From Candidatus Uhrbacteria bacterium CG10_big_fil_rev_8_21_14_0_10_50_16 (GTDB lineage Bacteria > Patescibacteriota > Patescibacteriia > UBA9934 > UBA11717), in assembly GCA_002774875.1 (NCBI GenBank), contig PCYM01000002.1, positions 14,781 through 78,780 on the forward strand: a stretch of 64,000 nucleotides of DNA, written 5' to 3'. Shown here one piece after another: positions 11,751-50,475 of this stretch. Below the pieces are notes generated by a model. That model was not told the origin of the DNA. It made no database searches and saw nothing but the letters and a program-made list of their open reading frames with translations. The position numbers and the translations under genes are program-made. Position 1 is the stretch's first letter; the number at the start of each line of letters is the position of its first letter.

Positions 11751-11794
11751 AGTGAGATCGACGCACCCCGTTCTTGGGTACGCCGATCCGTTGT

Positions 11795-12424: not shown

Positions 12425-12541
12425 GGCTCCTCCTTGGGCACTACATGCCAGCAAGCGTTCCGGAGAATCCGGTGCTCATCCACCATACAAACAAAAAAAC
12501 AGGTATATGTCAACACCTGCCATCTACTCATGATGAAGGTT

Positions 12542-24184: not shown

Positions 24185-25666
<1,482 letters not shown>

Positions 25667-28989: not shown

Positions 28990-29300
28990 ATAGGTAGTCC
29001 TTTTACAACAACAAAATCAATGACTCGAGAAGTAGTACTCTTATTACTCCCTGCAAAGCGAATCCGGGATGGTGGAAGCCGGATCATAGAATAAGAAGAA
29101 ATTGGACTCGATGAGATGACGCGTGCTTTTGTGCGTGTCCGGCATCCCCCGTAACCTTGGGATAATGTGTATCTACGGAGCACATGAAAGAGCCTTCTTT
29201 TTTTAGAAGGAATTGAGGTGGTACCGCGGTGGTGGAGAACCCCCGTCCTCAGACAACGTCTTGTTGTCTTTGGGCGGGGGTTTTTTGCCCCACGCAAGGA
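28990..29300 (+). promoter_or_regulatory. T-box riboswitch leader with intrinsic terminator
   Basis: Canonical T-box sequence AATTGAGGTGGTACCGCGGTG at ~29205-29225 (17/19 to AAUUAGGGUGGUACCGCGG); ~300-nt leader; terminator ccccc gtcc...gggcggggg + T6 at ~29242-29290 just before the SD of the downstream operon. Confidence 0.65.
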
Positions 29301-31690: not shown

Positions 31691-31722
31691 GGGTGTTTTA
31701 AAAACGCAGCAAAAAACGAACA

Positions 31723-33237: not shown

Positions 33238-33304
33238 AGTAAAAACATTTTATATCATATATGGTATATTGTCAATCAACAAAAACCTGCTATACTTGAG
33301 TCCT

Positions 33305-35104
33305 ATGGAAAAGCCCTCCGCCTTTTTGAGACAAGAAGCCAAGAAGCGACCCGAAGCTGCAGAAGTCCGCAGTGCAAAAGCTGCAGAGCTCGTTGAGGCA
33401 CGCACGCAAGACAGAGAACGCAGGGAGCGTCTTGCAGAACTCGCCGAGCAGATAGAAAACGGACGTTCGGAGGCATCACGCATAGAAGAAGGACTCCTTA
33501 CAGAGGCAGCGCAAGAACTCTCCACTGTGGAACAACAACTTAAAGAATTGCGAACCAGTAAACTCGCGGAAGTTTGGAATTGGAGACAAATCAAACAAGT
33601 AAAGGCAGAGATTGCACAGATACGAGCAAAACAAGGCGAGGGGGAATCCAGCCTGTACGTTGCTCAAGACTCCGTCAATAAGGCACAGGAACAACTGTAT
33701 GTCGCCAAGCAGAAGACGGATGTCCCATCGGCTCACGATATTTTGAATCAATACTACGAGGACGAGAAAGCTCTTTGGGAAAATCGTGAGGCTTCCATGG
33801 ACGATGTAGCTGAGTATTTTAGGGCAGACAAGCTTGCCGATATGGATATGGAGAGCTATGTGGACCTGCTGCGCCGCTTCCCTTCCGAAATGGTTACACA
33901 CGTTAGCCGTCGCGGCATCCGAGATCATGCCGAGCTTAGTTACCATACCTCTGGATTACAGGAATATCATGCAGCGTTTGATAGTGTCTTGGAAACAGGT
34001 CGGCTACAGTCAGCAATCAGTATTAAACTCGAAGGTGATCAAAAGGATGACGCGATTGCAAAACAGCTTAAATTAGACTCCTTTGCGACAAAAGAAGAAG
34101 CCTATGCGCATCTTGATCAACTAACCCAACGAGAAGGCTGGAATAGTTTTGCCGATCATAGCGCTGTTCATTTTGCCACAGAATGGGTGGCCGATGCCTA
34201 CTACGGATCCGAACGAGATAATGAAGTCTTTATTGCGTTTCCCTCTGCCCTTATTGCATCCGAATTCCAGTTTGGCGGGGGGCATGGTCGCGATCTTACA
34301 GAAGCAGGTGAAGACTCAGTAAGAAATGATTTGTGGGTTTGGCAAAAAGACGAGGAAGGCATCCCAATTGATGCAGGAGTCACATTCCTGCCAAAAGAAG
34401 CAGCCGTGGATCCAGAAACAGGCTCTCGCTATGAACTCGATACGGACAAAAACCCTATCGTTGATACGGAACGTGTACAACAATTAAAATCGGTACTTGA
34501 ATCCGGAGTCATTATTGAACTCGCAGCAGCATCCAGAGAAAAAGAATATGAATCCTACTCTCTTCCACCGTCAGAAAGAGTGTGGAGAAAAAAAGAGATA
34601 GAAACCGAGCTAAGGAAAAACATTCAAGAGGCACTGGGTATCTCTGATAAAACAGCCAAGGATGTACTCTATGACGTTGTGCCTCTCGTCGTCTTATCAG
34701 AGAGAGTTCAAAAAGCCCTTGCTGCAGAACCAGATCCAAACAACCAAGTAGTCGAGGATATGAATAACGCCCTTATTAAAATGGGCGCGTATTATAAAAC
34801 GGCAGAAAGGACGATTCCCTCTCAAGAGTATTGGAACAAACGATTCGAGGCGCACCCGGACCAAAAACCAAGTAAAGTCGTTTTTTACGAGGGGGACTCA
34901 CCTTCTGCCGCCCTCTATAAATGGCGAAAAGACAACGGGTTAACAAAACGCAGTGATAGCTTAGATGGCGACTTGAATGAAAAAAAGGTTACGACCGGAC
35001 AAGATACCATCGTCCAGTCTCGCTACAAAGACATTGCTCGTTCCATTATCGACAAACATTTTGATCAACAAGACACCTCCCAAACAGAAAAACAGGCCGC
35101 GTAG
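33305..35104 (+). CDS. Large hypothetical protein (599 aa; N-terminal charged coiled-coil region)
   Basis: ORF track, start moved to MEKPSAFL; no recognisable catalytic motif. Confidence 0.5.
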   Translation: MEKPSAFLRQEAKKRPEAAEVRSAKAAELVEARTQDRERRERLAELAEQIENGRSEASRIEEGLLTEAAQELSTVEQQLKELRTSKLAEVWNWRQIKQVKAEIAQIRAKQGEGESSLYVAQDSVNKAQEQLYVAKQKTDVPSAHDILNQYYEDEKALWENREASMDDVAEYFRADKLADMDMESYVDLLRRFPSEMVTHVSRRGIRDHAELSYHTSGLQEYHAAFDSVLETGRLQSAISIKLEGDQKDDAIAKQLKLDSFATKEEAYAHLDQLTQREGWNSFADHSAVHFATEWVADAYYGSERDNEVFIAFPSALIASEFQFGGGHGRDLTEAGEDSVRNDLWVWQKDEEGIPIDAGVTFLPKEAAVDPETGSRYELDTDKNPIVDTERVQQLKSVLESGVIIELAAASREKEYESYSLPPSERVWRKKEIETELRKNIQEALGISDKTAKDVLYDVVPLVVLSERVQKALAAEPDPNNQVVEDMNNALIKMGAYYKTAERTIPSQEYWNKRFEAHPDQKPSKVVFYEGDSPSAALYKWRKDNGLTKRSDSLDGDLNEKKVTTGQDTIVQSRYKDIARSIIDKHFDQQDTSQTEKQAA

Positions 35105-35123
35105 GACCTGTTTTTTTCTTAAA

Positions 35124-36026
35124 CTACTTGAGCCGAGAAACGTCGCGGGTAAAGCAGTCATGACCAACTTTATGCGCGTAAAAGTCACGCTCGGCGAGTC
35201 CACTTCCATAAGGAATTGGTCGTGAGTATCCCATGTCCGCGGTTGGTGCATAGGTAAACGTGGCACAAAGTTCATAGGTCGTGTCCGTCAACCGATTGTA
35301 CTCATACCCCTCACCCGTTTGTGGATCCACGGGTAACGTAAGGTATACGTTGACACCCGTAAGCGATTCTGGAAGTGCTGTTTGTTCATACCAATAGTTT
35401 TCTACCGCTCCTTGCACGGTCCACAAGTCTGTAACACGCTGGTTGTCTAACTTTTCTAGACGCTGTTGTGCGGGAGATTCCATGATAAAGAATCCGCCAA
35501 TCACGCTTGCTGCCAACAGCACCAACGTGACACGTGCCAACCACATCATCTTGACAGGCATTGCCTTAGCCTCGCGTCTGATATCCCAAATGTAATACGC
35601 AAAGACCGCAGCCGCAACAATTAATACGGAGAGGGTTTTAAGCGCAAACCGCATGGACAACTCGCCACCGAGAAAATTATAGATCAGCGTCGCGAGATCG
35701 ATCATAATAGTAATCCCCGACACAAATAGCGTGAGATGAATCAACCACCTACGAATCGCCAGGCTATATTTACCCGCGTGTGCCAGCATATCCTTGTTCA
35801 AAAACCACGCAACCCACACGTAAACCGGCGTAAATATGATCAGAACAGACAAAGAAACACGTAGGACGTCTGAAACATTATTAAAACTATTCACCGGATC
35901 CGGAAAAAAGTGGTTCACATATTGAAACAACGTCGAGATAGCCGACACAGAAATCGTATAAAGCGTAACGGTCACAAGGAGGTACAAGAACACGTCCCGA
36001 GCCGTTGAATTGGTTGTTTGGTTCAT
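35124..36026 (-). CDS. Integral membrane protein (multi-TM N-half, soluble C-half)
   Basis: Hydrophobic helices in first ~170 aa; 300 aa; family not recognised with certainty. Confidence 0.5.
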   Translation of the reverse strand: MNQTTNSTARDVFLYLLVTVTLYTISVSAISTLFQYVNHFFPDPVNSFNNVSDVLRVSLSVLIIFTPVYVWVAWFLNKDMLAHAGKYSLAIRRWLIHLTLFVSGITIMIDLATLIYNFLGGELSMRFALKTLSVLIVAAAVFAYYIWDIRREAKAMPVKMMWLARVTLVLLAASVIGGFFIMESPAQQRLEKLDNQRVTDLWTVQGAVENYWYEQTALPESLTGVNVYLTLPVDPQTGEGYEYNRLTDTTYELCATFTYAPTADMGYSRPIPYGSGLAERDFYAHKVGHDCFTRDVSRLK

Positions 36027-36100
36027 ATGGTATTAGTATAGAGCGGTTGCCCGTTTGCGACAAGCAACTACCAAAAAACCCGGTTTCCCGGGTTTTGTAT

Positions 36101-37900
36101 TTACATTTTTGAACCGTGACGTTTGCGATCCACCTCTGTGAGGTACTTTTTACGAATACGCGTAAAGTGGGGCGTTACCTCCACATACTCGTCTTCTACA
36201 ATGTACTCAAGTGCACGCTCAAGCGTCATATCCAACGGCGGCGTGAGGTTAAGTGCCTCGTCCGCACCGCTGGAACGCATGTTGGACAACTGTTTTCCCT
36301 TACATGGGTTAACGGTCATACTCTCTTTGGCGCTTGCCCCAATCACCATTCCCTCGTATACCTCAACGGTAGGCTCAATAAACAAGGTTCCTCGTTCCTG
36401 GAGGTTGGCGAGCGAAAATCCAAGTGCTTTACCTGTAACTCCAGAGATAATGGATCCCGTTGTGCGTTTCTCAATCTCTCCCTTGTACGGTCCGTAATGC
36501 GAGAAAATGTGCGATAGCGTTCCTTCGCCCTTGGTGGCCGTCACGAAATCCATACGGTATCCGAGCAATCCACGCGTAGGGATGACGTACTCAAGTCGCG
36601 TAAATCCGTCTCGGCTTTCCATGTTGATCATCTCGCCTTTTCGCTTTCCAAGCGCTTCAATGACGGCGCCCGCACTCACATCTGGCACATCAATTGTTAC
36701 GGACTCATATGGTTCTTCTTTTACACCATCAATCATCCGAATAATTGCTTGTGGCTGACTCACCTGTAACTCATACCCTTCGCGTCGCATGGTCTCAATC
36801 AACACCGCAAGGTGCATTTCTCCACGTCCACTCACATGGAACGCTTCACCAGTATCGGAATCCGTAATCTGCAATCCAACATTTGTCTCCAACTCGCGAT
36901 CAAGGCGCTCTCGAATCTGTCGGGACGTAACCAGGTTTCCATCTTTTCCAACGAACGGCGAACTGTTGGCCATAAAATCCATGGTCAACGTTGGCGGGTC
37001 GATGTGAATCGCAGGTAGCGCCTCCACGGTAGCGTCTTGTGCTACGGTCTCTCCTACGTTAATGTTTGGAATTCCGGCGATAGTCACCACGTCACCGGCA
37101 TAGGCCTCTTCCACGTCTCGCTTAACAAGACCCATCGTAGTTTGCAACTTGGTGATTTTTTGATTTTCCTTGGTTCCATCGAGTTTTGTAACCACAACGG
37201 ACATTCCTGACTTCATGGTTCCCTCTACGATGCGACCCATAGCCATACGACCAACGAATTTATCGTACGAGAGGTTGACCGGCTGCATGCGCATTGGCTT
37301 GCTATTCTCGCTCGGTGCTGGTGGCACGGTCGCCAAAATCAAATCAAACAACGGTTGCAAGTCGGTTCCCTGTACCCTTGGATCCGTAACGGCAATCCCG
37401 TCTCGTGCGATAGTGTAAATGTACTTAAAATCGAGCTGTTCATCTGTTGCACCCAATTCGCTAAACAAATCAAACACCATATCCACCACCTCATCTGGGC
37501 GTGCGGAGGGTTTGTCGATTTTGTTGATCACCACAATCGGCTTGAGGCCAAGTTCCAACGACTTGCGCAACACAAACTTGGTTTGTGGCATAGGACCCTC
37601 GTAGGCATCCACGAGCAAAAGCACGGAATCCACCATTTTAAGCACACGCTCCACCTCGGATCCAAAGTCTGCGTGACCTGGCGTGTCGATAATGTTGAGC
37701 TTGGTCTCGCCAAGCATAATAGCCGTATTCTTTGCGTAAATGGTGATTCCGCGTTCTTTTTCCAAGTCATTATTGTCCATCACGCGTTCTTCAATAATTT
37801 CCCGATCAGAAAAGGTACCAGACTGTTTAAGCATGGCGTCCACAAGTGTCGTTTTACCGTGGTCAACGTGAGCAATGATGGCGATGTTTCGAAAATCCAT
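36101..37900 (-). CDS. typA: Translational GTPase TypA/BipA
   Basis: AHVDHGKTT, DTPGHADF, NKID G-motifs and EF-G-like domains; 599 aa. Confidence 0.9.
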   Translation of the reverse strand: MDFRNIAIIAHVDHGKTTLVDAMLKQSGTFSDREIIEERVMDNNDLEKERGITIYAKNTAIMLGETKLNIIDTPGHADFGSEVERVLKMVDSVLLLVDAYEGPMPQTKFVLRKSLELGLKPIVVINKIDKPSARPDEVVDMVFDLFSELGATDEQLDFKYIYTIARDGIAVTDPRVQGTDLQPLFDLILATVPPAPSENSKPMRMQPVNLSYDKFVGRMAMGRIVEGTMKSGMSVVVTKLDGTKENQKITKLQTTMGLVKRDVEEAYAGDVVTIAGIPNINVGETVAQDATVEALPAIHIDPPTLTMDFMANSSPFVGKDGNLVTSRQIRERLDRELETNVGLQITDSDTGEAFHVSGRGEMHLAVLIETMRREGYELQVSQPQAIIRMIDGVKEEPYESVTIDVPDVSAGAVIEALGKRKGEMINMESRDGFTRLEYVIPTRGLLGYRMDFVTATKGEGTLSHIFSHYGPYKGEIEKRTTGSIISGVTGKALGFSLANLQERGTLFIEPTVEVYEGMVIGASAKESMTVNPCKGKQLSNMRSSGADEALNLTPPLDMTLERALEYIVEDEYVEVTPHFTRIRKKYLTEVDRKRHGSKM

Positions 37901-38021
37901 ATTAGGTGCAAAGAATCAATACCGGCGGAGTATAGCTGGAAATGCCGTTTTGGTCAAGTACAGGAGGTGTTAAAAGACAAAAAAAACACTCGGTTGTTGA
38001 GACTTCTGGGTGTTTGTCTGG

Positions 38022-38855
38022 TTATGACTGATTGGTATCAATAATGACACTCACCGGATCTCCCAAGTGGTCCCATGTACTTTCTGGGATGTTTGAGACG
38101 AGTTTTGGAACACCGTGATCCTCGTGCACACGCAACTCTGATACATAACCCGACAACTGTTCCTCGTCTCTCAGTCGATCCGCAAATTCTGGCGTCTCAA
38201 AATCTCTTACAGAATATCCTGGGAGCGGAACCCGAGAGAAGCTCTCCCCTTTTGATTGAGGCTCTACAAAAAGTGTCAATTCCATCATCGGTTGAATCAC
38301 ATGACACCAGGCCAGGTTATCGTCATACAGTGCCAACCGTTTGAGCCGCATCGACGCGCCGTGCTCAGACAGATAGTACAGCGAATCATCTGGACGAATT
38401 GTATCGGACACCTCACCTGGTGCACCCCCAGATTGAGTCGCAAACTTGTAGCGCCACACGGACTGTTTGTCTAAATATGCTGCGATATCATCCACGGCCT
38501 CTTTGGTAATACGACGATACGCGTCAGATGTTCGCTTAAGACCTACTAAACGTTTAACGGTTCTCACGCGTAGACGTTCCACCTCTTGCGAAACATGACT
38601 TAGCCCCTCCATTTCCCGCTCGGGAATCATAGGATACTCAAATGGTAACGCAGCAAGTTCACCTTTCCGTTCTTGCATTGCTCGCAGATGACCGATAACC
38701 AAGGAGGGTTTTACTGATTGTTCTGGTTTCTGTACCTCTCCTTCTAATACCTGTACCGGTTGTCGATATTTACTTTTAAGATCTGCCAAAAGACGATCGC
38801 TCCCCATGGCACGCAATCGCTCTTCCTCAGATGACCCACCTTTGTATTCACTCAT
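38022..38855 (-). CDS. Hypothetical protein (277 aa)
   Basis: ORF track; no motif recognised. Confidence 0.45.
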   Translation of the reverse strand: MSEYKGGSSEEERLRAMGSDRLLADLKSKYRQPVQVLEGEVQKPEQSVKPSLVIGHLRAMQERKGELAALPFEYPMIPEREMEGLSHVSQEVERLRVRTVKRLVGLKRTSDAYRRITKEAVDDIAAYLDKQSVWRYKFATQSGGAPGEVSDTIRPDDSLYYLSEHGASMRLKRLALYDDNLAWCHVIQPMMELTLFVEPQSKGESFSRVPLPGYSVRDFETPEFADRLRDEEQLSGYVSELRVHEDHGVPKLVSNIPESTWDHLGDPVSVIIDTNQS

Positions 38856-38876
38856 ACATTACACGTTCAAAATTCT

Positions 38877-39833
38877 TTATTTACAAAGATACTTATGGAC
38901 CACAAATCTAAACGGCAGCAACATAATTGCCCACGGGAATACTACGAGCACCGTTGCAAGGAGTACGTTTGGATCGGAAAAGTAGAGACCAGCAAGATAA
39001 ATAGCCAGTGTAAAGTTCATAAACGTCATGCAAATGGAAACGGCTGTACGATCATTGCAAGGACGCCAGTACGCCACAAAGTAGCCCGCCACCAGTAGCA
39101 AACTAATAAAACAGAACAAAGCGATAACGAGTGAGAGGAGTGTTTGATCAAGGTTGGTCAAAATGACATGCGATTGCTTTGCCACAACGCCCGCAATCAA
39201 CATGCCGAGTAGCAGAAGCGAGATCGGCTTAAAGGTAAATGCCATTTTCTGAATGTGCTTTTGAAAAAACGATCGAACACCCTGTGCGAGAACAAACGGA
39301 ATAACGATCACCTTCACTAAACTCCAAAACATCGTCACACCGCTCACGGTAACGGCAGTGCTCGCAAAAATACCAATCACAAACGGGATCGTAAACGGTG
39401 CTAGCAAGGACGTTGTGAGAGTAAGGACAAGTGCAACATCTGTTTTACCTCCTACAACCTCCGAGAGGAGAGGTGCTGTCATGCCCGTTGGCATTGCCGC
39501 AAGAAGCATGAGCGCAATCGCAAATTCCGGCACAATCCATTGCGCCAACAGATACACAACGGACGGCAACAGCAAGAGCATAAACACGTTTGCCGCAATC
39601 AACATCTTTGTATTTCTGACCGTGCGGAAAATCTCTGTTGGATTGAGCTTGAGGCTCGTGAGAAAAAAGATGATTTGCAAAAGAAGCGTCGCAAAGGGTG
39701 CGAAAATTATTGCGGAATCAGGAAGAAGCAAGCCTGCTCCAAGAGCCAAAAGAATAAGAAAGAAATAGGACTGGACGAGCTGTACGAACCATTGGATAAG
39801 TCTTTGTGACATAATAGCTTTAGTATACCTCAC
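38877..39833 (-). CDS. Bile acid:sodium symporter (BASS) family transporter
   Basis: ~10 TM helices with BASS-like repeats; start may be the downstream Met (MSQRLIQW, 39812). Confidence 0.6.
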   Translation of the reverse strand: MRYTKAIMSQRLIQWFVQLVQSYFFLILLALGAGLLLPDSAIIFAPFATLLLQIIFFLTSLKLNPTEIFRTVRNTKMLIAANVFMLLLLPSVVYLLAQWIVPEFAIALMLLAAMPTGMTAPLLSEVVGGKTDVALVLTLTTSLLAPFTIPFVIGIFASTAVTVSGVTMFWSLVKVIVIPFVLAQGVRSFFQKHIQKMAFTFKPISLLLLGMLIAGVVAKQSHVILTNLDQTLLSLVIALFCFISLLLVAGYFVAYWRPCNDRTAVSICMTFMNFTLAIYLAGLYFSDPNVLLATVLVVFPWAIMLLPFRFVVHKYLCK

Positions 39834-39857
39834 CGTCTCTGTTATACTGAGCCTACT

Positions 39858-40619
39858 ATGTTAAACAAATGGATCAACACGTTTATTCAACTTGGGTTGA
39901 GTGAAGTGGAATCAAAAATCTACTTTGCGGGGTTGGAGTTGGGGCCCACGAGCGCGCAAGAATTAGCACGCAAGGCGAGTGTCTCACGCACGGCCACGTA
40001 CGATGCGATTAATGCGCTCAAAGGGAAGGGATTGTTATCGACGTTTCAAAAGGGAGCAAAAACGGTGTTCACAATCGAGCAGCCTGAGGACGCGCTGCGT
40101 TACTTCCGCAAACAATCGCGACAAATGCGAGATAAGATTGAACTCATGGAAGAGGCCGTGCCGGAAATGAAAAGCCTCTCACCTGGGGAGAAGCCGTTTA
40201 TTCGATTTTACGAGGGACCCGAGGCATTGCGCAACTTATTTGCGGACGTACAGGCCGTCAATCCTCCTTCCATCTACGAGTTTGTAAATATTCAGGATGT
40301 GTATCATTCCGTGCACGACGGGACACCAGAGGTTAAAAAAATATTTGCCGAAGCTCACAATGTATCAGATCCATCACGGCAAGATATACGTCTCCTACAT
40401 ACGGGAAATGTACGAGAAAATTATCAACATCGTAAAGGCGTAGCGTTTCGACAACTGAACAATTCATTTGGTGAGTTTCACGGCGACATCTGGATTTATG
40501 GCGACCGAGTTGTGTTCACCTCATTTAAGGGATCCATTATGGCAATTATCATTCAAAGTGAAATGTTTTCTCAAACTGCCCGTGTCATGTTTGAAGCCGC
40601 CTGGTCTATAAGCAAATAA
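39858..40619 (+). CDS. TrmB-family transcriptional regulator (wHTH + C-terminal domain)
   Basis: N-terminal winged-helix EVESKIYFAGLELGPTSAQELARKASVSRTATYDAINALKGKGLL; paralogue of 45951..46757. Confidence 0.6.
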   Translation: MLNKWINTFIQLGLSEVESKIYFAGLELGPTSAQELARKASVSRTATYDAINALKGKGLLSTFQKGAKTVFTIEQPEDALRYFRKQSRQMRDKIELMEEAVPEMKSLSPGEKPFIRFYEGPEALRNLFADVQAVNPPSIYEFVNIQDVYHSVHDGTPEVKKIFAEAHNVSDPSRQDIRLLHTGNVRENYQHRKGVAFRQLNNSFGEFHGDIWIYGDRVVFTSFKGSIMAIIIQSEMFSQTARVMFEAAWSISK

Positions 40620-41079
40620 CAAACCGCGACCTGCCAGGTGGGCGGATCGCGGTCACAAGATCTGGCGGATCGCGGGGCGCGGACGTCGGAGAACCGACGC
40701 CGCACCCCGCTCTCCGCGCTTCTCAGCCGTTCATGGTGCCCTCCTGTGGCCATGGCTGGTGAAGCTATTCTTCCAACAAAGTTAAGGTCTCTGTGAAGAC
40801 CTGTCCTTGTAGATGCGACGCCGAGGGGGCGTCGTGGTTGGAGTCGCGTGGTACGCGACTTCCGGCCGGGTCTTTCACCCGGCGGAGGGCTGTGGGGGGG
40901 GCTAGCCGCCGAACATGGCGTACCCCTTTCCAGGTTTGATGAACGCATGAGCGCGTTCAATCAAAACCATCTATACCACAATTTTGCGGCTTTGTCAAGC
41001 GTAAGAGGCGTGTTTGTTCGCCTGCGACGTACTAAATAATCTTAAATTTACTGTGAGTTGTCCGCCAAAAGCGTACAAA

Positions 41080-41110
41080 ATAAACCGCTAACTTAAGCGG
41101 TTTATTTTAA
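41080..41110. terminator. Bidirectional terminator aaaccgct-aactt-aagcggttt
   Basis: Perfect 8-bp stem with A/T-rich flanks. Confidence 0.6.
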
Positions 41111-41126
41111 TTCTGGCAACAATGGA

Positions 41127-41155
41127 TTGACACAATGCCTCTTCCATGTTAATCT
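41127..41155 (+). promoter_or_regulatory. Sigma70-like promoter TTGACA-N17-TAATCT at the entrance of the high-GC island
   Basis: Read directly; no convincing ORF for the next ~1.1 kb. Confidence 0.5.
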
Positions 41156-42304
41156 GCTTTGTTCACTGATAGAGCACAACGCCTCAGTGATCCATGCATC
41201 TTACAAACAAACAGTGAAACAGGGCTTGTAACAACTACGTTGCAAGAACAAAGGACGATCGATATGGATCGTTCTCCTGGAATGTGCGTATGGCTGTAGG
41301 AAATTTCATGTAACGGCACTACAACGTACGGCAATCTGGATTAAAAAGGCTGGATCCATGGTCTACAACACCGTTTGAGACACATGTGTCCCCGCCACGC
41401 GGCCCCGCCGCGGATCTCTCGCTAGCACCACATAGACGCCATGCTATAGCTGGTAGCGGGAGATCCGCGGCAGAGGACGCAACCTGTCCAATCCGCACAA
41501 GAACTCTGTTGCCGGTGGGACGGCAAAACAGGGTGGGTGCTTGGCACACCCAGACCATCTGGTCAAAGATAACTCCTGGTAACAGGAGGAAACTCATGGC
41601 GGTAACACCATGGGGATGCGAAAGCATTCATAGCGCCACGCCTATCATGACGTATCCACGTTGGGTCGGGAGACCCCTCCAGGATCGGTACTGGAGTTGA
41701 TAGGTGCTTGCGGGTTGGAACCCTGCAAGAGTGAGTGCGGACAGTGGATTCTCCAATCCACGTTTGCACAGCAATGGTTTGGGCTACGCCCTCAACTGAT
41801 CGCAACCATTTTGTTACCGGCATCGCGCCCGAGTGGCGCGACCAATCAACCACCGGGTTGGTTTGCTGGGGCAATGGCGATCAGGTTGTATGCAAGGAAG
41901 GGCCTAACCGGTGAATCGTTCGTGTCAGTCATCTGCACGGCGATGATCCGGATAAAAAGGCGGATGGTTTGGGCGCCCCCCATTCCGTCCGCTCAACCAG
42001 GAGTCCCAGGCCGGCCAGCCAGGATTCTGAAGTTGAGAACTTGCATACTCCTAAGGCTGACACCCATCAGCCGACCGAATTCCATCGGGTTTTTCCGCTC
42101 AGACGGGCGGAAGACACACGGAAGGGTCAAAGACTGGTTGGCGGTCGCAACCGTCTCGCACAGCCTGAGAAGGCAACCAGCCGCGGGAGTAAGCACTTGC
42201 GTTACTTATTCCCACCTTATCTTCGCGCCCGAGCTTGCAATTCTGCTTGCTCGGACGCTCCACAAACTGCTTGAGTAACTCGAGCTGTTCGTGGAGGAGG
42301 AGCG

Positions 42305-42460
42305 ATGGCCATCACCCCCAGCTACGGAGTGGTGCGTCACGGCGCGGTCTGGTTTACCACCAGCCCGCAGCAGCTCAAGCGTGAGGCCCGTGAAAAGGCC
42401 GATCGCGAGCTGCAGGCGAAGCGACCTTGTGTCGTAATCCGCCGCCGCGCGCACCGGTAG
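42305..42460 (+). CDS. Small high-GC hypothetical protein (51 aa)
   Basis: GGAGGAGG SD immediately upstream of ATG; GC3-rich; below the track length cut-off. Confidence 0.35.
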   Translation: MAITPSYGVVRHGAVWFTTSPQQLKREAREKADRELQAKRPCVVIRRRAHR

Positions 42461-42681
42461 TCCTCATACGCTCGTGGGTCACACGAGCGTAAAAGGGTGC
42501 CGCAAACACCCTGCCCTAGCCAGGCAAAACCCCCGGGCTGCAGGTCCCATCTTGATTGAAAATTCCTGCACAACGTGGACCTGGGCACTGCTCGGGTCTT
42601 CCACAAAGGCGCGATCCTGTATGGCATTTTTGTGGAGGATACAACTCACTTACTGTTCTCGGAGGAGAACGAGGAGGTTCC

Positions 42682-42972
42682 ATGCGTCGATACACATTGT
42701 TCAGTAGCTGGCGTCGATCTGAGCTCGAGATCCCCTCCTCCGGGAGAAGGATCAAGAAGCTGGATAGGACGTTCGAGGTCGGCACCCCGCGGTACCTGAA
42801 GTGGCTCCGGCGCATGTTCCCCGATCAGGTTTACCTGGTCGTGGCGCAGGGAACCATGCCTCAAATGCTCGACCGCGTTCGCGCGCGGTTTGGACAGGAG
42901 GAGGTTCCCGGCGTGGTGTCTGCCACCGTTCAGCTTCAGCGGGACATCCGAGAAAACCCAAGTCTCTACTGA
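42682..42972 (+). CDS. Small high-GC hypothetical protein (96 aa, basic)
   Basis: GAGGAGG SD + ATG 42682 inside track ORF 42556..42972; preceded by a repeat-leader copy. Confidence 0.45.
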   Translation: MRRYTLFSSWRRSELEIPSSGRRIKKLDRTFEVGTPRYLKWLRRMFPDQVYLVVAQGTMPQMLDRVRARFGQEEVPGVVSATVQLQRDIRENPSLY

Positions 42973-42990
42973 AAGGAGGTGCTTCCGTGG

Positions 42991-43055
42991 CCTGAGGAGA
43001 ATCGCTTCTTGGGCCCTGCATAGAGTCTTTGCAAAACGAAGGTTCTATGGAGGAA
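42991..43055 (+). repeat. Repeated ~65-70-nt leader module (copy R1) with conserved 11-bp stem-loop ending in the SD
   Basis: GCCTGAGGAGAATCGCTTCTTGGGCCCTGCATAGAGTCTTTGCAAAACGAAGGTTCTATGGAGG is ~80% identical to the copy at 43711-43790; compensatory base changes keep the CAUAGAGUCYU/ARGRUUNUAUG stem. Confidence 0.55.
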
Positions 43056-43293
43056 AGGAAGTGTCAAATACCCCAGGTGGTATTGACGGCACTTCTGGCG
43101 CCTCACGACCATGTGCTCTCACCAGCACAAATTGGTCACAAAAGAGACGAACAGCAATGCGTCGCGGCTGCCAGTAGGAGGTATACGTACGAGGCCTGAG
43201 AAGATTCACTTCTCGGGCACTCTACAGAATTCTAGGCAGAAAAGGATTCTGAGAGTTAATCAATGTACGCAACAAGAGATTGGGAGGTGTGCG

Positions 43294-43569
43294 ATGAACA
43301 AGCTCAATGTGGTTGAGATAGGTCTTCGTAATGGCAAGGGTCTGAGCTTCACCTGCGGCAAGCTCTATGTCCGCATTACGGTAGACGGCCTCACGCTGCG
43401 CGTTGAGACCAACCTGCCGGTGCGGGCCAAGGAGCTGGCCGAGTCCGAGACGACCCCCGTTCGCCGGTCCGTGTTTGACCGCGCCGATGAGCTGCGCCGA
43501 GGAGGACGGCACAGCGACGTGGACGTGGCGGCAACAGGAGGGCGGCGGGTGATCCGACGCAGAACGTAA
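43294..43569 (+). CDS. Small high-GC hypothetical protein (92 aa)
   Basis: GGGAGG SD + ATG 43294 inside track ORF 43111..43569; preceded by a partial leader-module copy at 43194-43238. Confidence 0.45.
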   Translation: MNKLNVVEIGLRNGKGLSFTCGKLYVRITVDGLTLRVETNLPVRAKELAESETTPVRRSVFDRADELRRGGRHSDVDVAATGGRRVIRRRT

Positions 43570-43710
43570 ACCCCAGCCCGCGATCGGAACACGCGGCAAA
43601 GGCTGTTCCACCCCTCGCCCTCGCGAGCAGACCCCTTGCGTTTGAGCCACGCAATCGGGTCCCGTCCAGAACGGGGTAAGCCATCGCTCCGGGCGGTCAC
43701 GCGCCCCCTT

Positions 43711-43790
43711 GCCTGAGGTCAACTGATTCTCGGGCACTGCATAGAGTCCTTGCTGCACGAGGATTGTATGGAGTCTACAACTTTTGGAGG
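43711..43790 (+). repeat. Repeated leader module (copy R2) abutting the ATG of the 189-aa gene
   Basis: GCCTGAGGTCAACTGATTCTCGGGCACTGCATAGAGTCCTTGCTGCACGAGGATTGTATGGAGTCTACAACTTTTGGAGGTCACC then ATG. Confidence 0.55.
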
Positions 43791-43795
43791 TCACC

Positions 43796-44362
43796 ATGCG
43801 CCTGTTCGGACTTTCTGACTGTTACGATGCGATGGATCTGTACGTCTGCATCAACGGCAAGCACGTGCTCCTGTCCCGGTCGGAGGGGTGGGTGTCTGCC
43901 CGTGTGAAGCCGTGTGACAAGAGCTGTGTTCCCACGGAGATTGATCTGGAGGTGTGGCTGCAGAAGGCACCGCGGAAGGTCCGCAAGGATCCTCGGCTGC
44001 TCGCGTTCGTGGAGCAAGGAGTGCCCGCGTACACGGTGCACCGTTCCTTCGCCAAGCGCTCCGGCGGCAGCGAGACGGTCTGGATCGGCAACCTGGCGAT
44101 CACGTGGAGCTTTTGCGACGCGTCGCGGTTGAGCCAGCGGGACCGGTGGCGAGACCGCTTTGAGATCTGCCCCATCGGGGAGAATGATCTGCTGTGGTGG
44201 ATCCGCGACGTCCTCCCGTCCTCAAGACGGCTCGAAGACGTTGCCGAGGAGATCCGTCGCAATGACGATCTGCTCCTGAGCGAGCTCCGGCAGCGCGGCA
44301 CTCCGGACGCAAACACCCTGGACGCGGATGCCTTCCGGCAGTTTCTCTTGAACCTGCTGTAA
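43796..44362 (+). CDS. High-GC hypothetical protein (189 aa)
   Basis: Start at MRLFGLSD with GGAGG SD supplied by the leader module; terminator gccaaaatccc...gggatttggc+T7 at ~44400-44460. Confidence 0.5.
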   Translation: MRLFGLSDCYDAMDLYVCINGKHVLLSRSEGWVSARVKPCDKSCVPTEIDLEVWLQKAPRKVRKDPRLLAFVEQGVPAYTVHRSFAKRSGGSETVWIGNLAITWSFCDASRLSQRDRWRDRFEICPIGENDLLWWIRDVLPSSRRLEDVAEEIRRNDDLLLSELRQRGTPDANTLDADAFRQFLLNLL

Positions 44363-44592
44363 GAAGACGATCGTGCTCCCCAGCTCCCCGGTTCTCGGGT
44401 TGAGCCAAAATCCCTACGTCAATCCCATCTGTTCTTCTGGTGGGATTTGGCTTTTTTTGCTACATTTCTATTTAATTTTCATCGCCCAACAAACCTAGGG
44501 CGGCGGCATTTATTTATAAACAATACGACCTGAGACTTGATTATCTTATTTTTCTTTTAGGCTAAAATTAGCCATTTTTCCATGGTCACCTC

Positions 44593-44621
44593 TTGACAAA
44601 AGGTGTTTTTTATGGTATAAG
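44593..44621 (+). promoter_or_regulatory. Sigma70-like promoter TTGACA-N17-TATAAG in AT-rich spacer driving the next high-GC ORF
   Basis: Read directly. Confidence 0.5.
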
Positions 44622-44761
44622 ATTGTTACGCCAAAGGTGGAATAGGTTCACCTAACGCGCAGACGATCCGGAACGCTGATTCATACAGCATTCTGAAAGA
44701 CGATAACGGATCGGTCTCGTGCAAGCGAGATACCTATGAACGGGGCTTACCACCCCACGGA

Positions 44762-45460
44762 GTGATGATGGAAAAGGAAACCAACGTCATGGTGCGCCTC
44801 CCGGCGCGAGAATGGGAAATCCTCATCAAGGAGGTCCTCGCCGCAGAGGCAGATCTCCCCTCGTGGGAGTGGTGCAGAACAAGCGGAGCCCCCCGCGAGG
44901 AGGAGGGGCGGCGGCGCGATGCCGCCAGGACCGCTCTGAGGGTGGCCATGGGTCGCTCACCGGCCAACGAGAGGATGGAGGACCGTCTGGCCAACAAGGC
45001 CGGGTGCGTCCTCCTCGTGGACGGCCGGTTTGAGATCGGGGGCTCCGTTGGGGAGCGCAAGCTCCTGATCAACGGCCGAATCCGGGCCACCCTCCGCCTG
45101 GGGGGCCGTCTGGACGGCCGCGTGGATGTCGTCACCCGGGAGGCGGCCGAGGCCGCCTACCAGGAGCGACGACAGGCCTCCCGCCACGCCGAGGCCGCCT
45201 ACAAGGCGGCCCGGCAGGAGCTCATCCACGAGCTCCTGCAGGCGGACCTGGCCGAGCCCGCCGACTTCGGTCGGTGGACATACGCCTACGGGCAGTTCGG
45301 TGGGTATTTCTACCGAACGGGGGTGAGCGGCCCCCGCGTCGCCGCCAACTCCGCCTTCGTGGCGGCGTTCGGCCGCGACTGGAGGAAGACCGCCAACGAT
45401 CGGCGTTGCGAGAAGATCGAGCTCGAGCTCGATCGTCGGCTCTACGGCGCCCGCTACTAG
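44762..45460 (+). CDS. High-GC hypothetical protein (232 aa, Arg/Ala/Glu-rich)
   Basis: GGAG SD then ATGATG; GC3-saturated; followed by a terminator-like hairpin + T-run at ~45517-45575. Confidence 0.5.
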   Translation: MMMEKETNVMVRLPAREWEILIKEVLAAEADLPSWEWCRTSGAPREEEGRRRDAARTALRVAMGRSPANERMEDRLANKAGCVLLVDGRFEIGGSVGERKLLINGRIRATLRLGGRLDGRVDVVTREAAEAAYQERRQASRHAEAAYKAARQELIHELLQADLAEPADFGRWTYAYGQFGGYFYRTGVSGPRVAANSAFVAAFGRDWRKTANDRRCEKIELELDRRLYGARY

Positions 45461-45950
45461 CCCCCCAAAAAAATCCTGAGCAAGCAGGAACCCTTCGGAG
45501 CACATGTCTTGCTACATGTCTCCACCTACGCCCCGAACCACCCCCGTGCAAAATCACGGTCTGGAGGTCCGGGGTTTTGCGTTTTAAAATAGCTGTCTCT
45601 CTTAAACACCCGCATTTTTTTAACATGTTTTCCTGCGTGAGGAGATGCGACGGGTGAAGAAGATGAGATACATCTGACCGCCCAACCAAGAACCGACCCC
45701 CATCGATACGTCGATGAAGGGCGACGTCACTCGGTGGGCGGTTCTTGTTTTTGTTCGTCTCGCAGTAAACATCATTGATACGCCAGGCGAATATTTGAGA
45801 GGATAGTGATATAGGTTGAGTATTTCTACCAGGTGATCACTAATGACTTATGCCGTAGAATTATCCTCTACATCTCGATAAGCACGCATTGCCCTTTTTT
45901 CAGTACTTTGCTAAGTTACATACATGAGTAAGTAGATTTTATTTCCCCAA

Positions 45951-46757
45951 GTGAGCATAATCCCCTATCTTATGAGTGAGCTCAACACAATCAAAACGGC
46001 GCTACAACACCTGCATGCAAGCCCGAACGCCATTTCGTTCTTTCTAACGAGCTACAAGCTGAGTCGTTCTTCCGTTGGACTGATTGCCAAGACCGCCAAG
46101 ATGGATAGGTCTTCGGCATACATCGCCTACGAGCAACTCAAAGAGCTAGGTCTCATGGAGGAGGAGACGGTTGGCAGACGAAAGGTGGTTTGGACACGCG
46201 AACCAAAGGCCGTCATTGCTCGTCTACGCACCGAGATCCGCCGCATGCGAAGGCAGGTAGAGTCTATCGAAGAAGCAATGCCGGAACTCCTCGCACAGTA
46301 TGGCAGTCGTAATGACCGCCCCGTTCTGCAAGTATTTACTGGAAACGACGGTCTCCATCAGATAAAGAACGATATCTTGTCGGGCTCGGGCTTTGAGCTT
46401 CTCCTCATGTCCAACTTCCGTGAGGAGGCTGAGGTTTTTTCACGAGAGGAGCATGACAGCTTTATTCAACAGCGACTCTCGCAAAACATCACACTGCGTC
46501 TCATTGCGACAGACTCTCTCGAGGCACGCAAGATCCAAAGCTCCGATGCAAAAAATCATCGTGAAACTCTTGTAATAGAAGGTGATGCCCCATTTAATAA
46601 TGAAACCTACATCTACGGCAATAAGGTCGCGATGCTCTCATTCAATGAGCAAACTGGCGTTATTGGCTTTATTATTCAGTCAAAGGAGTTTGCAGATGCG
46701 CAGCGCTGGATGTTTGAGCAGATTTGGAAACAATTAAATACAAGTAACAAGACTTGA
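45951..46757 (+). CDS. TrmB-family transcriptional regulator, paralogue of 39858..40619
   Basis: C-terminal IYGNKVAMLSF...GFIIQSKEFADAQRWMFEQIW parallels IYGDRVVFTSF...AIIIQSEMFSQTARVMFEAAW of the first copy; start may be Met 45972. Confidence 0.55.
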   Translation: MSIIPYLMSELNTIKTALQHLHASPNAISFFLTSYKLSRSSVGLIAKTAKMDRSSAYIAYEQLKELGLMEEETVGRRKVVWTREPKAVIARLRTEIRRMRRQVESIEEAMPELLAQYGSRNDRPVLQVFTGNDGLHQIKNDILSGSGFELLLMSNFREEAEVFSREEHDSFIQQRLSQNITLRLIATDSLEARKIQSSDAKNHRETLVIEGDAPFNNETYIYGNKVAMLSFNEQTGVIGFIIQSKEFADAQRWMFEQIWKQLNTSNKT

Positions 46758-50168: not shown

Positions 50169-50244
50169 TGGAGCGGGTAGAGGGAATCGAACCCTCATCT
50201 CAAGCTTGGAAGGCTCGCATAATAAGCCACTATACTATACCCGC
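50169..50244 (-). tRNA. tRNA-Gly (anticodon UCC)
   Basis: Reverse complement GCGGGTATAGTATAGTGGCTTATTATGCGAGCCTTCCAAGCTTGAGATGAGGGTTCGATTCCCTCTACCCGCTCCA; anticodon loop CTTCCAA; T-arm GAGGG-TTCGATT-CCCTC. Confidence 0.75.
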
Positions 50245-50475
50245 ATATTGTTTAATGTACCTTCTTCCCTCTCCCGACTTCAGCCACTTTTCTCGAATGC
50301 GACCTACTATAAAGTCAGGATGAGTTTCCGTTAGAATAACACGGAACGGCCGTTTGTGTTTTGTTGATCGATTTCTTCCGGAATTGTGCTCACTTAATCG
50401 TCGATCAAGATCTTTACACATTCCTATGTACAGAGTCCCATCAAATTCACTCACCAGCGCATAGACAGTTATCAT
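50230..50475 (-). CDS. GIY-YIG nuclease-domain protein, YhbQ/UPF0213-like (81 aa)
   Basis: ITVYALVSEFDGTLYIGMCKDLDRRLSEHNSG matches the GIY-(x10)-YIG...R...H.xG core; its last 15 nt overlap the 5' end of tRNA-Gly. Confidence 0.65.
   Translation of the reverse strand: MITVYALVSEFDGTLYIGMCKDLDRRLSEHNSGRNRSTKHKRPFRVILTETHPDFIVGRIREKWLKSGEGRRYIKQYAGIV

What the first reader, a model, noticed from the sequence alone, without database searches (positions are those of the whole stretch)
39858..46757. Two TrmB-family paralogues bracket a 5-kb high-GC island
The regulators at 39858-40619 and 45951-46757 share architecture and C-terminal sequence (IYG..V...SF......IIQS..F....R.MFE..W).

Everything between them, 40620-45600, is compositionally foreign. 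This looks like insertion of cargo into, or alongside, a tandem regulator pair. Alternatively one TrmB copy may travel with the cargo.
Basis: partly seen in the sequence, partly recalled or inferred. Interest (0 to 1): 0.5.

Follow-up and report, generated by a model that had tools for sequence, protein, structure and literature searches.

The report
Foreign ORFan island with structured RNA
Between two distantly related regulator genes of a groundwater Uhrbacteria (CPR) genome lies a real, horizontally exchanged high-GC island: a 1.1-kb hairpin-dense non-coding RNA leader followed by small proteins with no known relatives, each preceded by the same double-hairpin element, while the two flanking regulators are neighbours by coincidence, not a split pair.

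Summary
TrmB-1 (39858-40619) and TrmB-2 (45951-46757) are full-length but distant paralogues (23% identity, E 5e-18). The 5.3 kb between them is 58% GC against 47-48% in the flanks.

The "split tandem pair" reading does not hold. TrmB-2 belongs to a conserved trmB2-hydrolase-murF-ddl block whose upstream neighbour differs in every Uhrbacteria relative examined. In the sister species UBA11717 the island follows TrmB-1 but abuts tRNA-Gly, with no TrmB-2 at that position.

The island is foreign and was shared recently:
- Island ORFs have GC3 0.73-0.86 (host 0.42-0.54).
- Four of five have a full GGAGG Shine-Dalgarno site; 0 of 27 host genes have even GGAG/GAGG.
- ORF188 and ORF231 have no homologues in 5.8 billion proteins.
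- Synonymous divergence from the sister species is 0.04-0.19, against 0.6-0.75 for host genes.

TrmB-1 sits at background divergence, so it does not travel with the cargo.

The island contains no integrase and no att repeats. It holds a promoter, a ~1.15-kb hairpin-dense non-coding leader (fold z -3 to -7, compensatory changes, no Rfam match), four small ORFs each preceded by a conserved double hairpin, a terminator, and a separate ORF231 unit. Function is unknown. The best reading is an accessory operon exchanged by homologous recombination. Interest is moderate.

The parts
39858..40619 (+). TrmB-1: wHTH regulator with an uncharacterised C-terminal domain. Native host gene. Its last ~33 nt (from 40587) belong to the low-divergence block.
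   Evidence: Pfam TrmB 3.6e-11; pS 0.73 and 84% aa identity to UBA11717; junction alignment
40620..41076 (+). GC-rich (60%), hairpin-dense non-coding segment directly after the TrmB-1 stop. Probably a structured 3' UTR or a separate RNA; strand uncertain.
   Evidence: No coding signature; fold z -3.6 to -7.3 on both strands; about 4% diverged from species B
41077..41108 (.). 13-bp hairpin flanked by A- and U-runs. Candidate bidirectional intrinsic terminator.
   Evidence: Fold -16.2 kcal/mol, z -4.4
41127..41155 (+). Candidate sigma-70 promoter: TTGACA-17-TAATCT with TG at -14.
   Evidence: Read from the sequence; 41101-41200 has 0 differences from species B. Not flagged by the consensus scan.
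41161..42217 (+). Long hairpin-dense non-coding leader RNA of about 1.1 kb, including a hypervariable sub-domain at 41260-41390.
   Evidence: No ORF with a coding signature, and no recoding rescues one; z -3 to -5.3 per 200 nt; 6 differences in 700 nt (41390-42090) against pS about 0.08 in neighbouring ORFs; compensatory and + strand G-U-compatible changes; no Rfam match
42218..42306 (+). Double-hairpin element, diverged copy m0, abutting the SD and ATG of ORF51.
   Evidence: CM R1 13.5 bits in A and 16.6 bits in B; two hairpins in the fold
42305..42460 (+). ORF51, a small basic protein.
   Evidence: GGAGG SD, GC3 0.79; called by independent gene callers
42455..42503 (+). Conserved hairpin after ORF51 with 3 fully compensatory base-pair changes between the species.
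   Evidence: Fold -29.1 kcal/mol, z -6.5; A-U>G-C, C-G>U-A, G-C>A-U
42569..42647 (+). Double-hairpin element, diverged copy m00, upstream of ORF96.
   Evidence: CM R1 22.7 bits, E 6e-5 in A; 27.9 bits in B
42682..42972 (+). ORF96, a small basic protein.
   Evidence: GGAGG SD, GC3 0.73; pS 0.043, pN 0.014
42980..43062 (+). Double-hairpin element m1. The 38-40-codon frame that follows it (43061-43185) is probably not coding.
   Evidence: the frame shows Sd 0 / Nd 7 and GC3 0.44
43184..43266 (+). Double-hairpin element m2. In species B a 1.4-kb three-gene segment sits between two copies of it.
43294..43569 (+). ORF91, a small protein with a basic C-terminus.
   Evidence: GGAGG SD, GC3 0.74; pS 0.068, pN 0.015; 6-nt in-frame indel between the species
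43701..43783 (+). Double-hairpin element m3, upstream of ORF188.
43796..44362 (+). ORF188, an ORFan protein.
   Evidence: GC3 0.81, GGAGG SD; matches only itself in 5.8e9 proteins and in 1.84e9 representatives; no Pfam, PHROG, PADLOC, NCBIfam or PDB hit
44418..44458 (+). Intrinsic terminator (hairpin plus U7). The right end of the segment shared with species B (~44421) falls inside it.
   Evidence: Fold; blastn end-point
44593..44623 (+). Candidate sigma-70 promoter for ORF231: TTGACA-17-TATAAG.
   Evidence: Read from the sequence; inferred
44765..45460 (+). ORF231, an ORFan protein (69% GC, GC3 0.86). A separate module, absent from the species-B locus.
   Evidence: a 42-nt in-frame deletion variant exists
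45686..45753 (+). Long hairpin plus U-run. Candidate terminator closing the ORF231 unit.
   Evidence: Fold -36.6 kcal/mol, z -3.0
45951..46757 (+). TrmB-2 (gene callers start it at ATG 45972, giving 261 aa). Head of the conserved trmB2-hydrolase-murF-ddl block.
50169..50244 (-). tRNA-Gly(UCC). In species B the island ends 218 nt from its 3' end; in this window 5.7 kb of extra DNA lies between them.

Best explanation
The 5.3 kb is a horizontally acquired accessory island. It circulates among closely related Uhrbacteria by homologous recombination and sits at a synteny breakpoint. Its position between two TrmB paralogues is coincidental.

Shown:
- It has two transcription-unit-like modules.
- Module 1 (about 41130-44458) consists of a promoter-like site, a ~1.15-kb hairpin-dense non-coding leader, and then four small SD-led ORFs (51, 96, 91 and 188 aa). 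Each ORF is preceded by a structurally conserved double hairpin placed just 5' of the ribosome-binding site. The module ends at an intrinsic terminator.
- Module 2 (about 44593-45753) is a promoter-like site, a 130-nt leader, ORF231 and a terminator.
- The sister species shares module 1 at 96-99% identity while host genes are saturated at synonymous sites.
- The left crossover lies inside the 3' end of TrmB-1.

Inferred:
- Module 1 is transcribed as one polycistronic + strand RNA.
- The leader and the double hairpins act in cis at the RNA level. The likeliest roles are intercistronic processing or 5'-end stabilisation, or operator sites that control translation of each small ORF. T7 RNase III sites and phage operator hairpins are the analogies.
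- The genes came from an SD-using, high-GC donor, probably a mobile element whose mobility genes are not, or no longer, present.

What the proteins do is unknown.
For: Foreign origin:
- GC 58% against 47-48% in the flanks; GC3 0.73-0.86 against 0.42-0.54.
- A full GGAGG SD on 4 of 5 island ORFs against 0 of 27 host genes with GGAG/GAGG. The host 16S keeps the anti-SD, so the sites are usable.
- ORF188 and ORF231 match nothing but themselves in 5.8e9 proteins, and ORF188 nothing in 1.84e9 representatives by exhaustive HMMER.

Recent exchange:
- Island ORFs have pS 0.04-0.19 against 0.59-0.75 for TypA, EPSP synthase, TrmB-1 and other host genes.
- Divergence drops from 26-29 differences per 100 nt to about 1 at ~40587, inside TrmB-1.
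- Divergence rises again gradually on both outer flanks (SBF 4%; GIY-YIG 4-7%; RuvC 13%; then 24-30%).

Real genes:
- Codon-position GC pattern, SD sites, in-frame indels, pN/pS 0.2-0.5, and consistent calls by independent gene callers.

Structured RNA:
- Fold z -3 to -7 across 40600-42500 against about 0 in host coding DNA.
- 9 double substitutions keep pairing and 1 breaks it, against a mean of 2.7 kept in shifted controls.
- Paired positions change at 4.5%, unpaired positions at 8.4%.
- Stem substitutions in 41400-42000 keep pairing only on the + strand.
- The hairpin at 42455-42503 has three compensatory pairs.

Motif:
- 5 copies in species A and 6 in species B, all on the + strand, all inside the island, one before each ORF of module 1 (in species B the three extra genes share a single copy). 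None is found elsewhere in the window or in relatives lacking the island.
- The two-hairpin architecture is kept although copies m0 and m00 share little sequence with m1-m3.

Coincidental bracketing.
Against: - Only two sequence variants of the island exist in the public data, so covariation support is thin. Single-sided stem changes are no better preserved than in shifted controls (44% against 41% kept).
- Strongly negative z-scores occur on both strands, so DNA-level palindromes cannot be excluded for much of the leader.
- The promoters are read by eye and were not flagged by the consensus scan. There is no transcript evidence.
- Uneven divergence within the island could reflect mosaic recombination rather than selection on the leader.
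- TrmB-1, at background divergence between two low-divergence blocks, is not explained by a single recombination tract.
- No donor, mobility gene or att site was found, so the route of original acquisition is unknown.
Confidence: 0.6

Rival explanations
1. The island is a remnant of a site-specific integrative element (prophage, satellite or integrative plasmid) that inserted at the 3' end of tRNA-Gly and has since lost its integrase. In the window genome a later rearrangement placed ORF231 and the trmB2-murF-ddl block between the element and the tRNA.
For: In species B the island ends 218 nt from the 3' end of tRNA-Gly(UCC), confirmed in three assemblies. Homology between the two genomes resumes within 6 nt of the tRNA 3' end. 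Composition is foreign and content is all ORFan. Gene content varies between the species.
Against: There is no integrase, recombinase, replication or structural gene in either species. There is no direct repeat or tRNA fragment at the other end. The left boundary lies inside the conserved 3' end of TrmB-1, as expected for homologous rather than site-specific recombination. No match was found in phage, plasmid or viral-contig collections.
Confidence: 0.2
2. The island is an integron-like cassette array. The double hairpin would be a structure-defined recombination site (attC-like), and each hairpin-plus-ORF unit a mobile cassette.
For: The ORFs are small, co-oriented ORFans separated by a repeated element that is conserved in structure rather than sequence. 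A 1.4-kb segment present only in species B is bounded exactly by two near-identical copies of motif m2.
Against: There is no IntI-type integrase or attI. The element is two separate short hairpins rather than one long imperfect palindrome with R''/L''-L'/R' boxes, and no conserved GTTRRRY core is present (sequence). Invariant G-U pairs work only as + strand RNA. The element lies 5' of each ORF next to the SD, and none follows the last ORF. The indel is equally explained by homologous deletion between 76-nt direct repeats. The extra segment carries three genes behind one motif.
Confidence: 0.07
3. One reading: a tandem TrmB regulator pair was split by insertion of cargo, or one TrmB copy is part of the cargo.
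For: The two genes are true paralogues on the same strand flanking foreign DNA. TrmB-1 is next to the island in both species that have it.
Against: No relative has the two genes adjacent. TrmB-2 is tied to murF-ddl across the lineage with variable upstream neighbours. Species B has the island without TrmB-2. At 23% identity the duplication is ancient, and L013 carries yet another paralogue only 24% identical to TrmB-1. TrmB-1 is at background divergence and host GC, unlike the island.
Confidence: 0.04
4. The non-coding 1.7 kb is decaying foreign DNA (pseudogenes). Its hairpins would be a by-product of GC-rich sequence, and only the small ORFs, if any, would be functional.
For: The region has no Rfam family. 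Z-scores are negative on both strands. Single-sided stem changes are not better preserved than in controls. pN/pS of the ORFs is fairly high (0.2-0.5).
Against: Z-scores are computed against dinucleotide shuffles, so GC content is controlled. tblastx and recoding find no gene remnants. 41390-42090 is about ten-fold less diverged than synonymous sites of the adjacent ORFs. Double compensatory changes are enriched, and stems change half as often as loops. The promoter region is 100% conserved.
Confidence: 0.09

Closest known systems
Genomic islands / horizontally transferred accessory gene clusters exchanged by homologous recombination between related populations
   Same: Deviant GC and codon usage, ORFan content, presence or absence and content varying between close relatives, location at a synteny breakpoint and (in species B) next to a tRNA gene, and a trough of divergence around the locus.
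   Different: No integrase, transposase, att repeats or any recognisable mobility or cargo function. A third of the island is a structured non-coding region.
Large 'ornate' structured RNAs often carried on mobile DNA (GOLLD, ROOL, HEARO, OLE; Rfam families)
   Same: A long (>1 kb), hairpin-dense, non-coding stretch that is better conserved than neighbouring synonymous sites, on horizontally moving DNA.
   Different: No match to any of 4227 Rfam models, even at E up to 10. Only two variants are known, so a conserved architecture cannot be demonstrated. It directly precedes an operon, so it may be simply a 5' leader.
Intercistronic RNA hairpins of phage operons (T7 RNase III processing sites; operator hairpins bound by phage coat or RegA-type repressors; the two-stem put antitermination RNAs of HK022). 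Comparison from general knowledge, not tested.
   Same: A repeated 60-80-nt stem-loop element between cistrons of a short operon, just 5' of the ribosome-binding site, conserved in structure more than in sequence.
   Different: No sequence or model similarity was tested or found. The processing enzyme or binding protein is unknown. There are five or six copies within 1.6 kb.
Integron cassette arrays / CALINs
   Same: An array of small, co-oriented ORFan genes separated by structure-conserved repeats, with an indel bounded by two repeat copies.
   Different: No IntI, no attC core sites, two short hairpins instead of one long one, and G-U pairs that imply RNA rather than folded ssDNA.
TrmB family transcriptional regulators (Pfam PF01978)
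   Same: Both flanking proteins have the N-terminal winged-helix domain, followed by a ~150-aa C-terminal domain and a coiled linker.
   Different: The C-terminal domain is not the sugar-binding domain of archaeal TrmB: NCBIfam equivalog scores are 22-32 bits against cut-offs of 500-650. The two genes are not functionally or evolutionarily tied to the island.

Membership tests
TrmB family (PF01978) | N-terminal TrmB-type winged HTH scoring above the Pfam gathering cut-off (25.6 bits) | tested here: met
   TrmB-1 scores 43.2 bits, E 3.6e-11. TrmB-2 alone scores 13 bits (not met), but it is homologous to TrmB-1 over its full length (E 5e-18), and several of its orthologues carry PF01978.
TrmB family (sugar-sensing TrmB/TrmBL1 equivalogs) | Full-length match including the C-terminal sugar-binding domain | tested here: not met
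   NCBIfam NF040851, NF047390 and NF047392 score 22-32 bits against cut-offs of 500-650, and only residues ~4-106 match.
Tandem/split paralogue pair | The two genes are adjacent in relatives that lack the insert | tested here: not met
   Five contexts of TrmB-2 orthologues and one context of a TrmB-1 orthologue were examined; the genes are never adjacent.
Horizontally acquired genomic island | Composition and codon usage deviating from the host genome | tested here: met
   GC 58% against 47-48%; GC3 0.73-0.86 against 0.42-0.54; SD usage differs from the host.
Horizontally acquired genomic island | Patchy distribution and phylogenetic incongruence with flanking genes | tested here: met
   Absent from the TrmB-2 contexts of other Uhrbacteria. 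Island pS 0.04-0.19 against host 0.6-0.75.
Site-specific integrative element (prophage/ICE/IME) | Integrase or recombinase gene | tested here: not met
   No Pfam, PHROG, NCBIfam or PADLOC hit for any island ORF in either species.
Site-specific integrative element (prophage/ICE/IME) | Flanking direct repeats (attL/attR), typically a duplicated tRNA 3' end | tested here: not met
   No repeat longer than 9 nt between the ends and no tRNA-Gly fragment in the island. tRNA adjacency is seen only in species B.
Integron / CALIN | IntI integrase with attI and the Pc promoter | tested here: not met
   No tyrosine recombinase in or beside the island.
Integron / CALIN | attC sites: a single imperfect palindrome with R''(RYYYAAC)...R'(GTTRRRY) cores | tested here: not met
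   The element is two separate hairpins and the copies share no such cores.
Any Rfam RNA family (including GOLLD, ROOL, OLE, HEARO, group I/II introns, riboswitches) | Covariance-model score at or above the gathering threshold | tested here: not met
   No hit at gathering threshold. Only chance-level miRNA-type hits at E up to 10.
Structured functional RNA (generic) | Thermodynamic stability beyond composition, plus compensatory substitutions | tested here: inconclusive
   Z -3 to -7. 9 of 10 double changes keep pairing, against 16 of 34 in shifted controls, but single-sided changes show no enrichment and only two variants exist. The motif hairpins show 3 covarying pairs among paralogous copies.
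Anti-phage defence system (PADLOC) | Match to a known defence protein model | tested here: not met
   Best hits have E 0.0026-0.04 and are partial.

The most novel reading that the evidence does not exclude
The ~1.15-kb leader and the double-hairpin element repeated before each ORF of the operon would together form a previously undescribed RNA-centred system, carried on integrase-less mobile DNA of CPR bacteria. One version is a large structured RNA that works with the small basic ORFan proteins, as an RNP or as a cis-acting processing, antitermination or translation-control system. This would let an SD-dependent foreign operon be expressed in a host that otherwise uses leaderless mRNAs.
Probability: 0.2. 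Interest if true: 0.6.

Novelty: new variant of a known kind. Interest (0 to 1): 0.4.

Why it matters
Horizontal gene flow and mobile DNA in Candidate Phyla Radiation bacteria are poorly documented, because these organisms are known almost only from metagenomes.

This locus is a clean, multiply assembled example of inter-species exchange in Uhrbacteria. The recombination end-point is mapped to within a few tens of nucleotides inside a host gene. The foreign genes use Shine-Dalgarno initiation in a host whose own genes in this window appear largely leaderless.

If the long leader and the repeated double hairpin are functional RNAs, they would add a new structured-RNA class from a lineage with almost no characterised non-coding RNAs.

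For the original finding, the practical lesson is negative. Paralogous regulators flanking a compositional island need not be a split pair, and synteny in relatives showed that directly here.

Tried and rejected
- **rRNA or another known RNA in the ORF-less stretch:** no Rfam hit at gathering threshold or at E up to 10, and no tRNA.
- **Alternative genetic code:** reassigning TGA, TAG or TAA does not open long frames.
- **Assembly chimera:** rejected, since the locus is identical in at least 6 independent assemblies.
- **Pseudogene remnants of relatives' genes (for example iPGM):** no blastn or tblastx similarity.
- **Homologues of island proteins:** none by word-seeded search, by exhaustive HMMER for ORF188, or in Pfam, PHROGs, PADLOC, NCBIfam or PDB.
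- **Structure prediction:** single-sequence AlphaFold gave pLDDT 45-46 for ORF188 and ORF231, so fold searches were not run; they would be meaningless.
- **Motif core pattern in public collections:** 0 hits in viral contigs and 13 in metagenome contigs. All 13 are single matches lacking the second hairpin and any island similarity, which is about the number expected by chance.
- **Phage and plasmid collections:** no blastn match.
- **att repeats or tRNA fragments at the ends:** none.
- **Literature:** searches for Uhrbacteria HGT and for CPR SD/leaderless usage returned nothing relevant to this locus.
- **The TrmB upstream of iPGM in L013 as a TrmB-1 orthologue:** rejected at 24% identity.
- **First sliding z-score script:** it timed out and was rerun with smaller windows.

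Full report
**Source and reality of the locus**

The window comes from Candidatus Uhrbacteria bacterium CG10_big_fil_rev_8_21_14_0_10, a CPR (Patescibacteria) organism; the name is given by the sources for the island proteins. The stretch 39858-46757 is 100% identical in independent JGI, ENA and Logan assemblies. One population variant carries a 42-nt in-frame deletion in ORF231. The island is therefore not an assembly artefact.

**Check of the observation**

- TrmB-1 passes the Pfam TrmB cut-off. TrmB-2 does not pass on its own, but it is its reciprocal best match, and these are the only two such ORFs in the window.
- The intervening DNA is 58% GC against 47-48% in the flanks, and it is the most GC-rich 5-kb stretch of the window.
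- It is not uniformly foreign. Two AT-rich spacers (41041-41160 and 44363-44764) and the tail 45461-45950 have host-like or lower GC.

**Anatomy**

No frame is open for more than about 280 codons, and reassigning any stop codon does not help.

Codon-position GC identifies five credible + strand genes: ORF51 (42305-42460), ORF96 (42682-42972), ORF91 (43294-43569), ORF188 (43796-44362) and ORF231 (44765-45460). They have GC3 0.73-0.86 and GC2 0.44-0.52. Four of them have a GGAGG Shine-Dalgarno site at proper spacing. Independent gene callers call the same ORFs.

The first 1.7 kb (40620-42304) has no coding signature. No Rfam family matches anywhere in the island, even at E up to 10.

The following signals were read from the sequence and checked by folding:
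- a bidirectional terminator at 41077-41108;
- a TTGACA-17-TAATCT promoter at 41127-41155;
- a terminator with a U7 tail at 44418-44458;
- a TTGACA-17-TATAAG promoter at 44593-44623;
- a long terminator hairpin at 45686-45753.

The promoters are inferences. The consensus scan did not list them.

**A repeated RNA element**

A 68-nt direct repeat occurs three times. RNAalifold resolves it into two hairpins of 11 bp and 9 bp. Three pairs covary, and invariant G-U pairs can form only on the + strand.

A covariance model built from these copies finds two further, diverged copies at 42569-42647 and 42218-42306. The element therefore precedes each ORF of module 1, ending 0-35 nt before the start codon. 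It occurs nowhere else in the 64-kb window or in relatives lacking the island.

Each copy folds into the same two-hairpin shape, although m0 and m00 share little sequence with m1-m3. The core pattern is absent from viral contigs. The 13 metagenome matches are chance hits.

**Structure of the leader**

In 200-nt windows, folding z-scores against dinucleotide shuffles are -3 to -7 throughout 40600-42500, and close to 0 (between about -2 and +2) in host coding DNA. The + strand is favoured at 41800-42100 and 42900-43300.

**Synteny test**

- TrmB-2 has orthologues at 40-75% identity across Uhrbacteria.
- In every context examined it heads hydrolase-murF-ddl, or ddl alone. The genes upstream differ each time, and no island DNA is present.
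- The TrmB gene upstream of iPGM in L013 is only 24% identical to TrmB-1, so it is another paralogue.
- The single genome with a TrmB-1 orthologue, UBA11717 ('species B', 84% aa), is collinear with the window from 31064 to 43264.
- It then carries an extra 1.4 kb (three high-GC ORFs, one weakly receiver-like) bounded by two copies of motif m2.
- It resumes at 43189-44421 and continues straight into tRNA-Gly, GIY-YIG and RuvC.
- ORF231 and trmB2-hydrolase-murF-ddl are not at that position.
- Three independent assemblies confirm the arrangement.

The two regulators are therefore not a conserved or split pair. Their juxtaposition is specific to the window's lineage.

**Age of the island**

- Between the two species, host genes are saturated at synonymous sites (pS 0.59-0.75). 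TrmB-1 is among them at 0.73.
- Island ORFs have pS 0.04-0.19 and pN/pS of about 0.2-0.5.
- Divergence falls from 26-29 differences per 100 nt to about 1 at ~40587. That is 33 nt before the TrmB-1 stop, within the codons for the conserved MFEAAW motif.
- Divergence rises again stepwise on the outer flanks.
- This pattern, together with the absence of an integrase, att repeats or tRNA fragments, fits recent inter-species exchange by homologous recombination better than site-specific insertion.

Inside the island, short patches of 20-30% divergence (41260-41390, 42094-42113, 42400-42500) suggest a pool of older island variants that recombine.

One feature remains unexplained. TrmB-1 is fully diverged while SBF on its left (pS 0.11) and the island on its right are nearly identical between the species.

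**Is the non-coding part functional?**

Evidence for:
- 41390-42090 shows 6 differences in 700 nt. That is about ten-fold below the synonymous rate of the adjacent ORFs.
- Using the structure predicted from the window sequence alone, 9 double substitutions keep a pair and 1 breaks it. Shifted controls keep 16 of 34.
- Paired positions change at 4.5% and unpaired positions at 8.4%.
- The stem substitutions in 41400-42000 keep pairing only on the + strand.
- The hairpin after ORF51 has three fully compensatory pairs.

Evidence against:
- Single-sided changes are no better preserved than in controls.
- Z-scores are negative on both strands.
- Only two variants exist.

I rate a functional + strand RNA as likely but not demonstrated.

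**Foreign translation signals**

None of 27 host genes in the window has a GGAG or GAGG motif upstream. Many have a TATACT-like box 7-10 nt before the start codon, which suggests leaderless mRNAs. Four of the five island ORFs carry a full GGAGG. The host 16S rRNA retains CCUCC at its 3' end, so these sites are usable.

**Content**

- ORF188 and ORF231 match only themselves in 5.8 billion proteins.
- ORF188 also matches only itself in an exhaustive HMMER search of 1.84 billion representatives.
- Nothing matches Pfam, PHROGs, PADLOC, NCBIfam or PDB.
- Single-sequence structure predictions are unusable at pLDDT 45-46.
- Phage and plasmid collections hold nothing similar.

**Conclusion**

The 'tandem regulator pair' and 'TrmB travels with cargo' parts are not supported.

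The best reading (confidence about 0.6) is a horizontally exchanged accessory island made of two modules:
- a long structured leader followed by an operon of four small ORFan proteins punctuated by a double-hairpin RNA element;
- a separate ORF231 unit.

The island sits at a rearrangement-prone junction. Its function is unknown. The most likely role of the hairpins is RNA processing or stabilisation, or translational control.

It is a new variant of a familiar kind of feature (a genomic island). A modest chance (about 0.2) remains that the RNA components represent a new structured-RNA system of CPR mobile DNA.

Noticed in passing
whole window; e.g. upstream of 39858, 39812(-), 36026(-), 33305, 53900(-): Host genes lack Shine-Dalgarno motifs (0 of 27 with GGAG/GAGG). 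Many have a TATACT/TATAAT-like -10 box 7-10 nt before the start codon, suggesting predominantly leaderless mRNAs, although the 16S 3' end keeps the CCUCC anti-SD.
   Followed up: partly
window 4601-6259: A second high-GC gene (552 aa, 65% GC, GC3 0.78) with a GGAGG SD and no Pfam domain. It carries the same foreign signature as the island ORFs.
   Followed up: partly
window 62000-64000 (runs off the end): A 68-69% GC stretch with one + strand frame open for more than 667 codons, GC3 0.92, and no Pfam hit. It looks like another, larger high-GC acquisition just downstream of rpoB.
   Followed up: partly
window 10097-12454: A Ser/Thr protein kinase with a PEGA domain and a GGDEF diguanylate cyclase, at 58% GC (GC3 0.64-0.67), form a further compositionally deviant patch.
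   Followed up: no
window 38877-39833 (-): The SBF/bile-acid:sodium symporter-family gene is 96% identical (pS 0.11) to its species-B orthologue, with sharp gene-length boundaries, while its neighbours are 70-85% identical. This is a second recently exchanged segment, separated from the island by the fully diverged TrmB-1.
   Followed up: partly
window 8085-8202; 29011-29253; 24185-25665: Rfam hits above gathering threshold: LOOT RNA (78 bits), a T-box leader (96.8 bits), and a 16S rRNA gene with no 23S rRNA anywhere in the 64-kb window, so the rRNA genes are unlinked.
   Followed up: no
window 45146-45218 (inside ORF231); locus L009: Two 31-nt direct repeats 42 nt apart. One population variant (L009, protein P0003) has lost exactly 42 nt in frame, giving a 216/217-aa form of ORF231.
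   Followed up: partly
L017 13405-14815 (= L033 7993-9396): Species-B-only segment with three high-GC ORFs (128, 150 and 117 aa). The 150-aa protein has a weak N-terminal response-regulator receiver match (E 6e-5, below the cut-off) and a PHROG of unknown function (1.4e-7).
   Followed up: partly
window 41596-41700: A 34-codon frame inside the 'leader' has a perfect AGGAGG SD 6 nt upstream but no coding GC3 signature, and the two species show no substitutions there to test it. A micro-ORF cannot be excluded.
   Followed up: no
window 50230-50475 (-) and L015/L033: A small GIY-YIG-domain gene sits beside a tRNA gene downstream of ddl in this genome. One also sits near a tRNA downstream of ddl in a distant relative (L015) and beside tRNA-Gly in species B (L033). 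This region is 93-96% identical between species A and B, so it belongs to the low-divergence trough.
   Followed up: no
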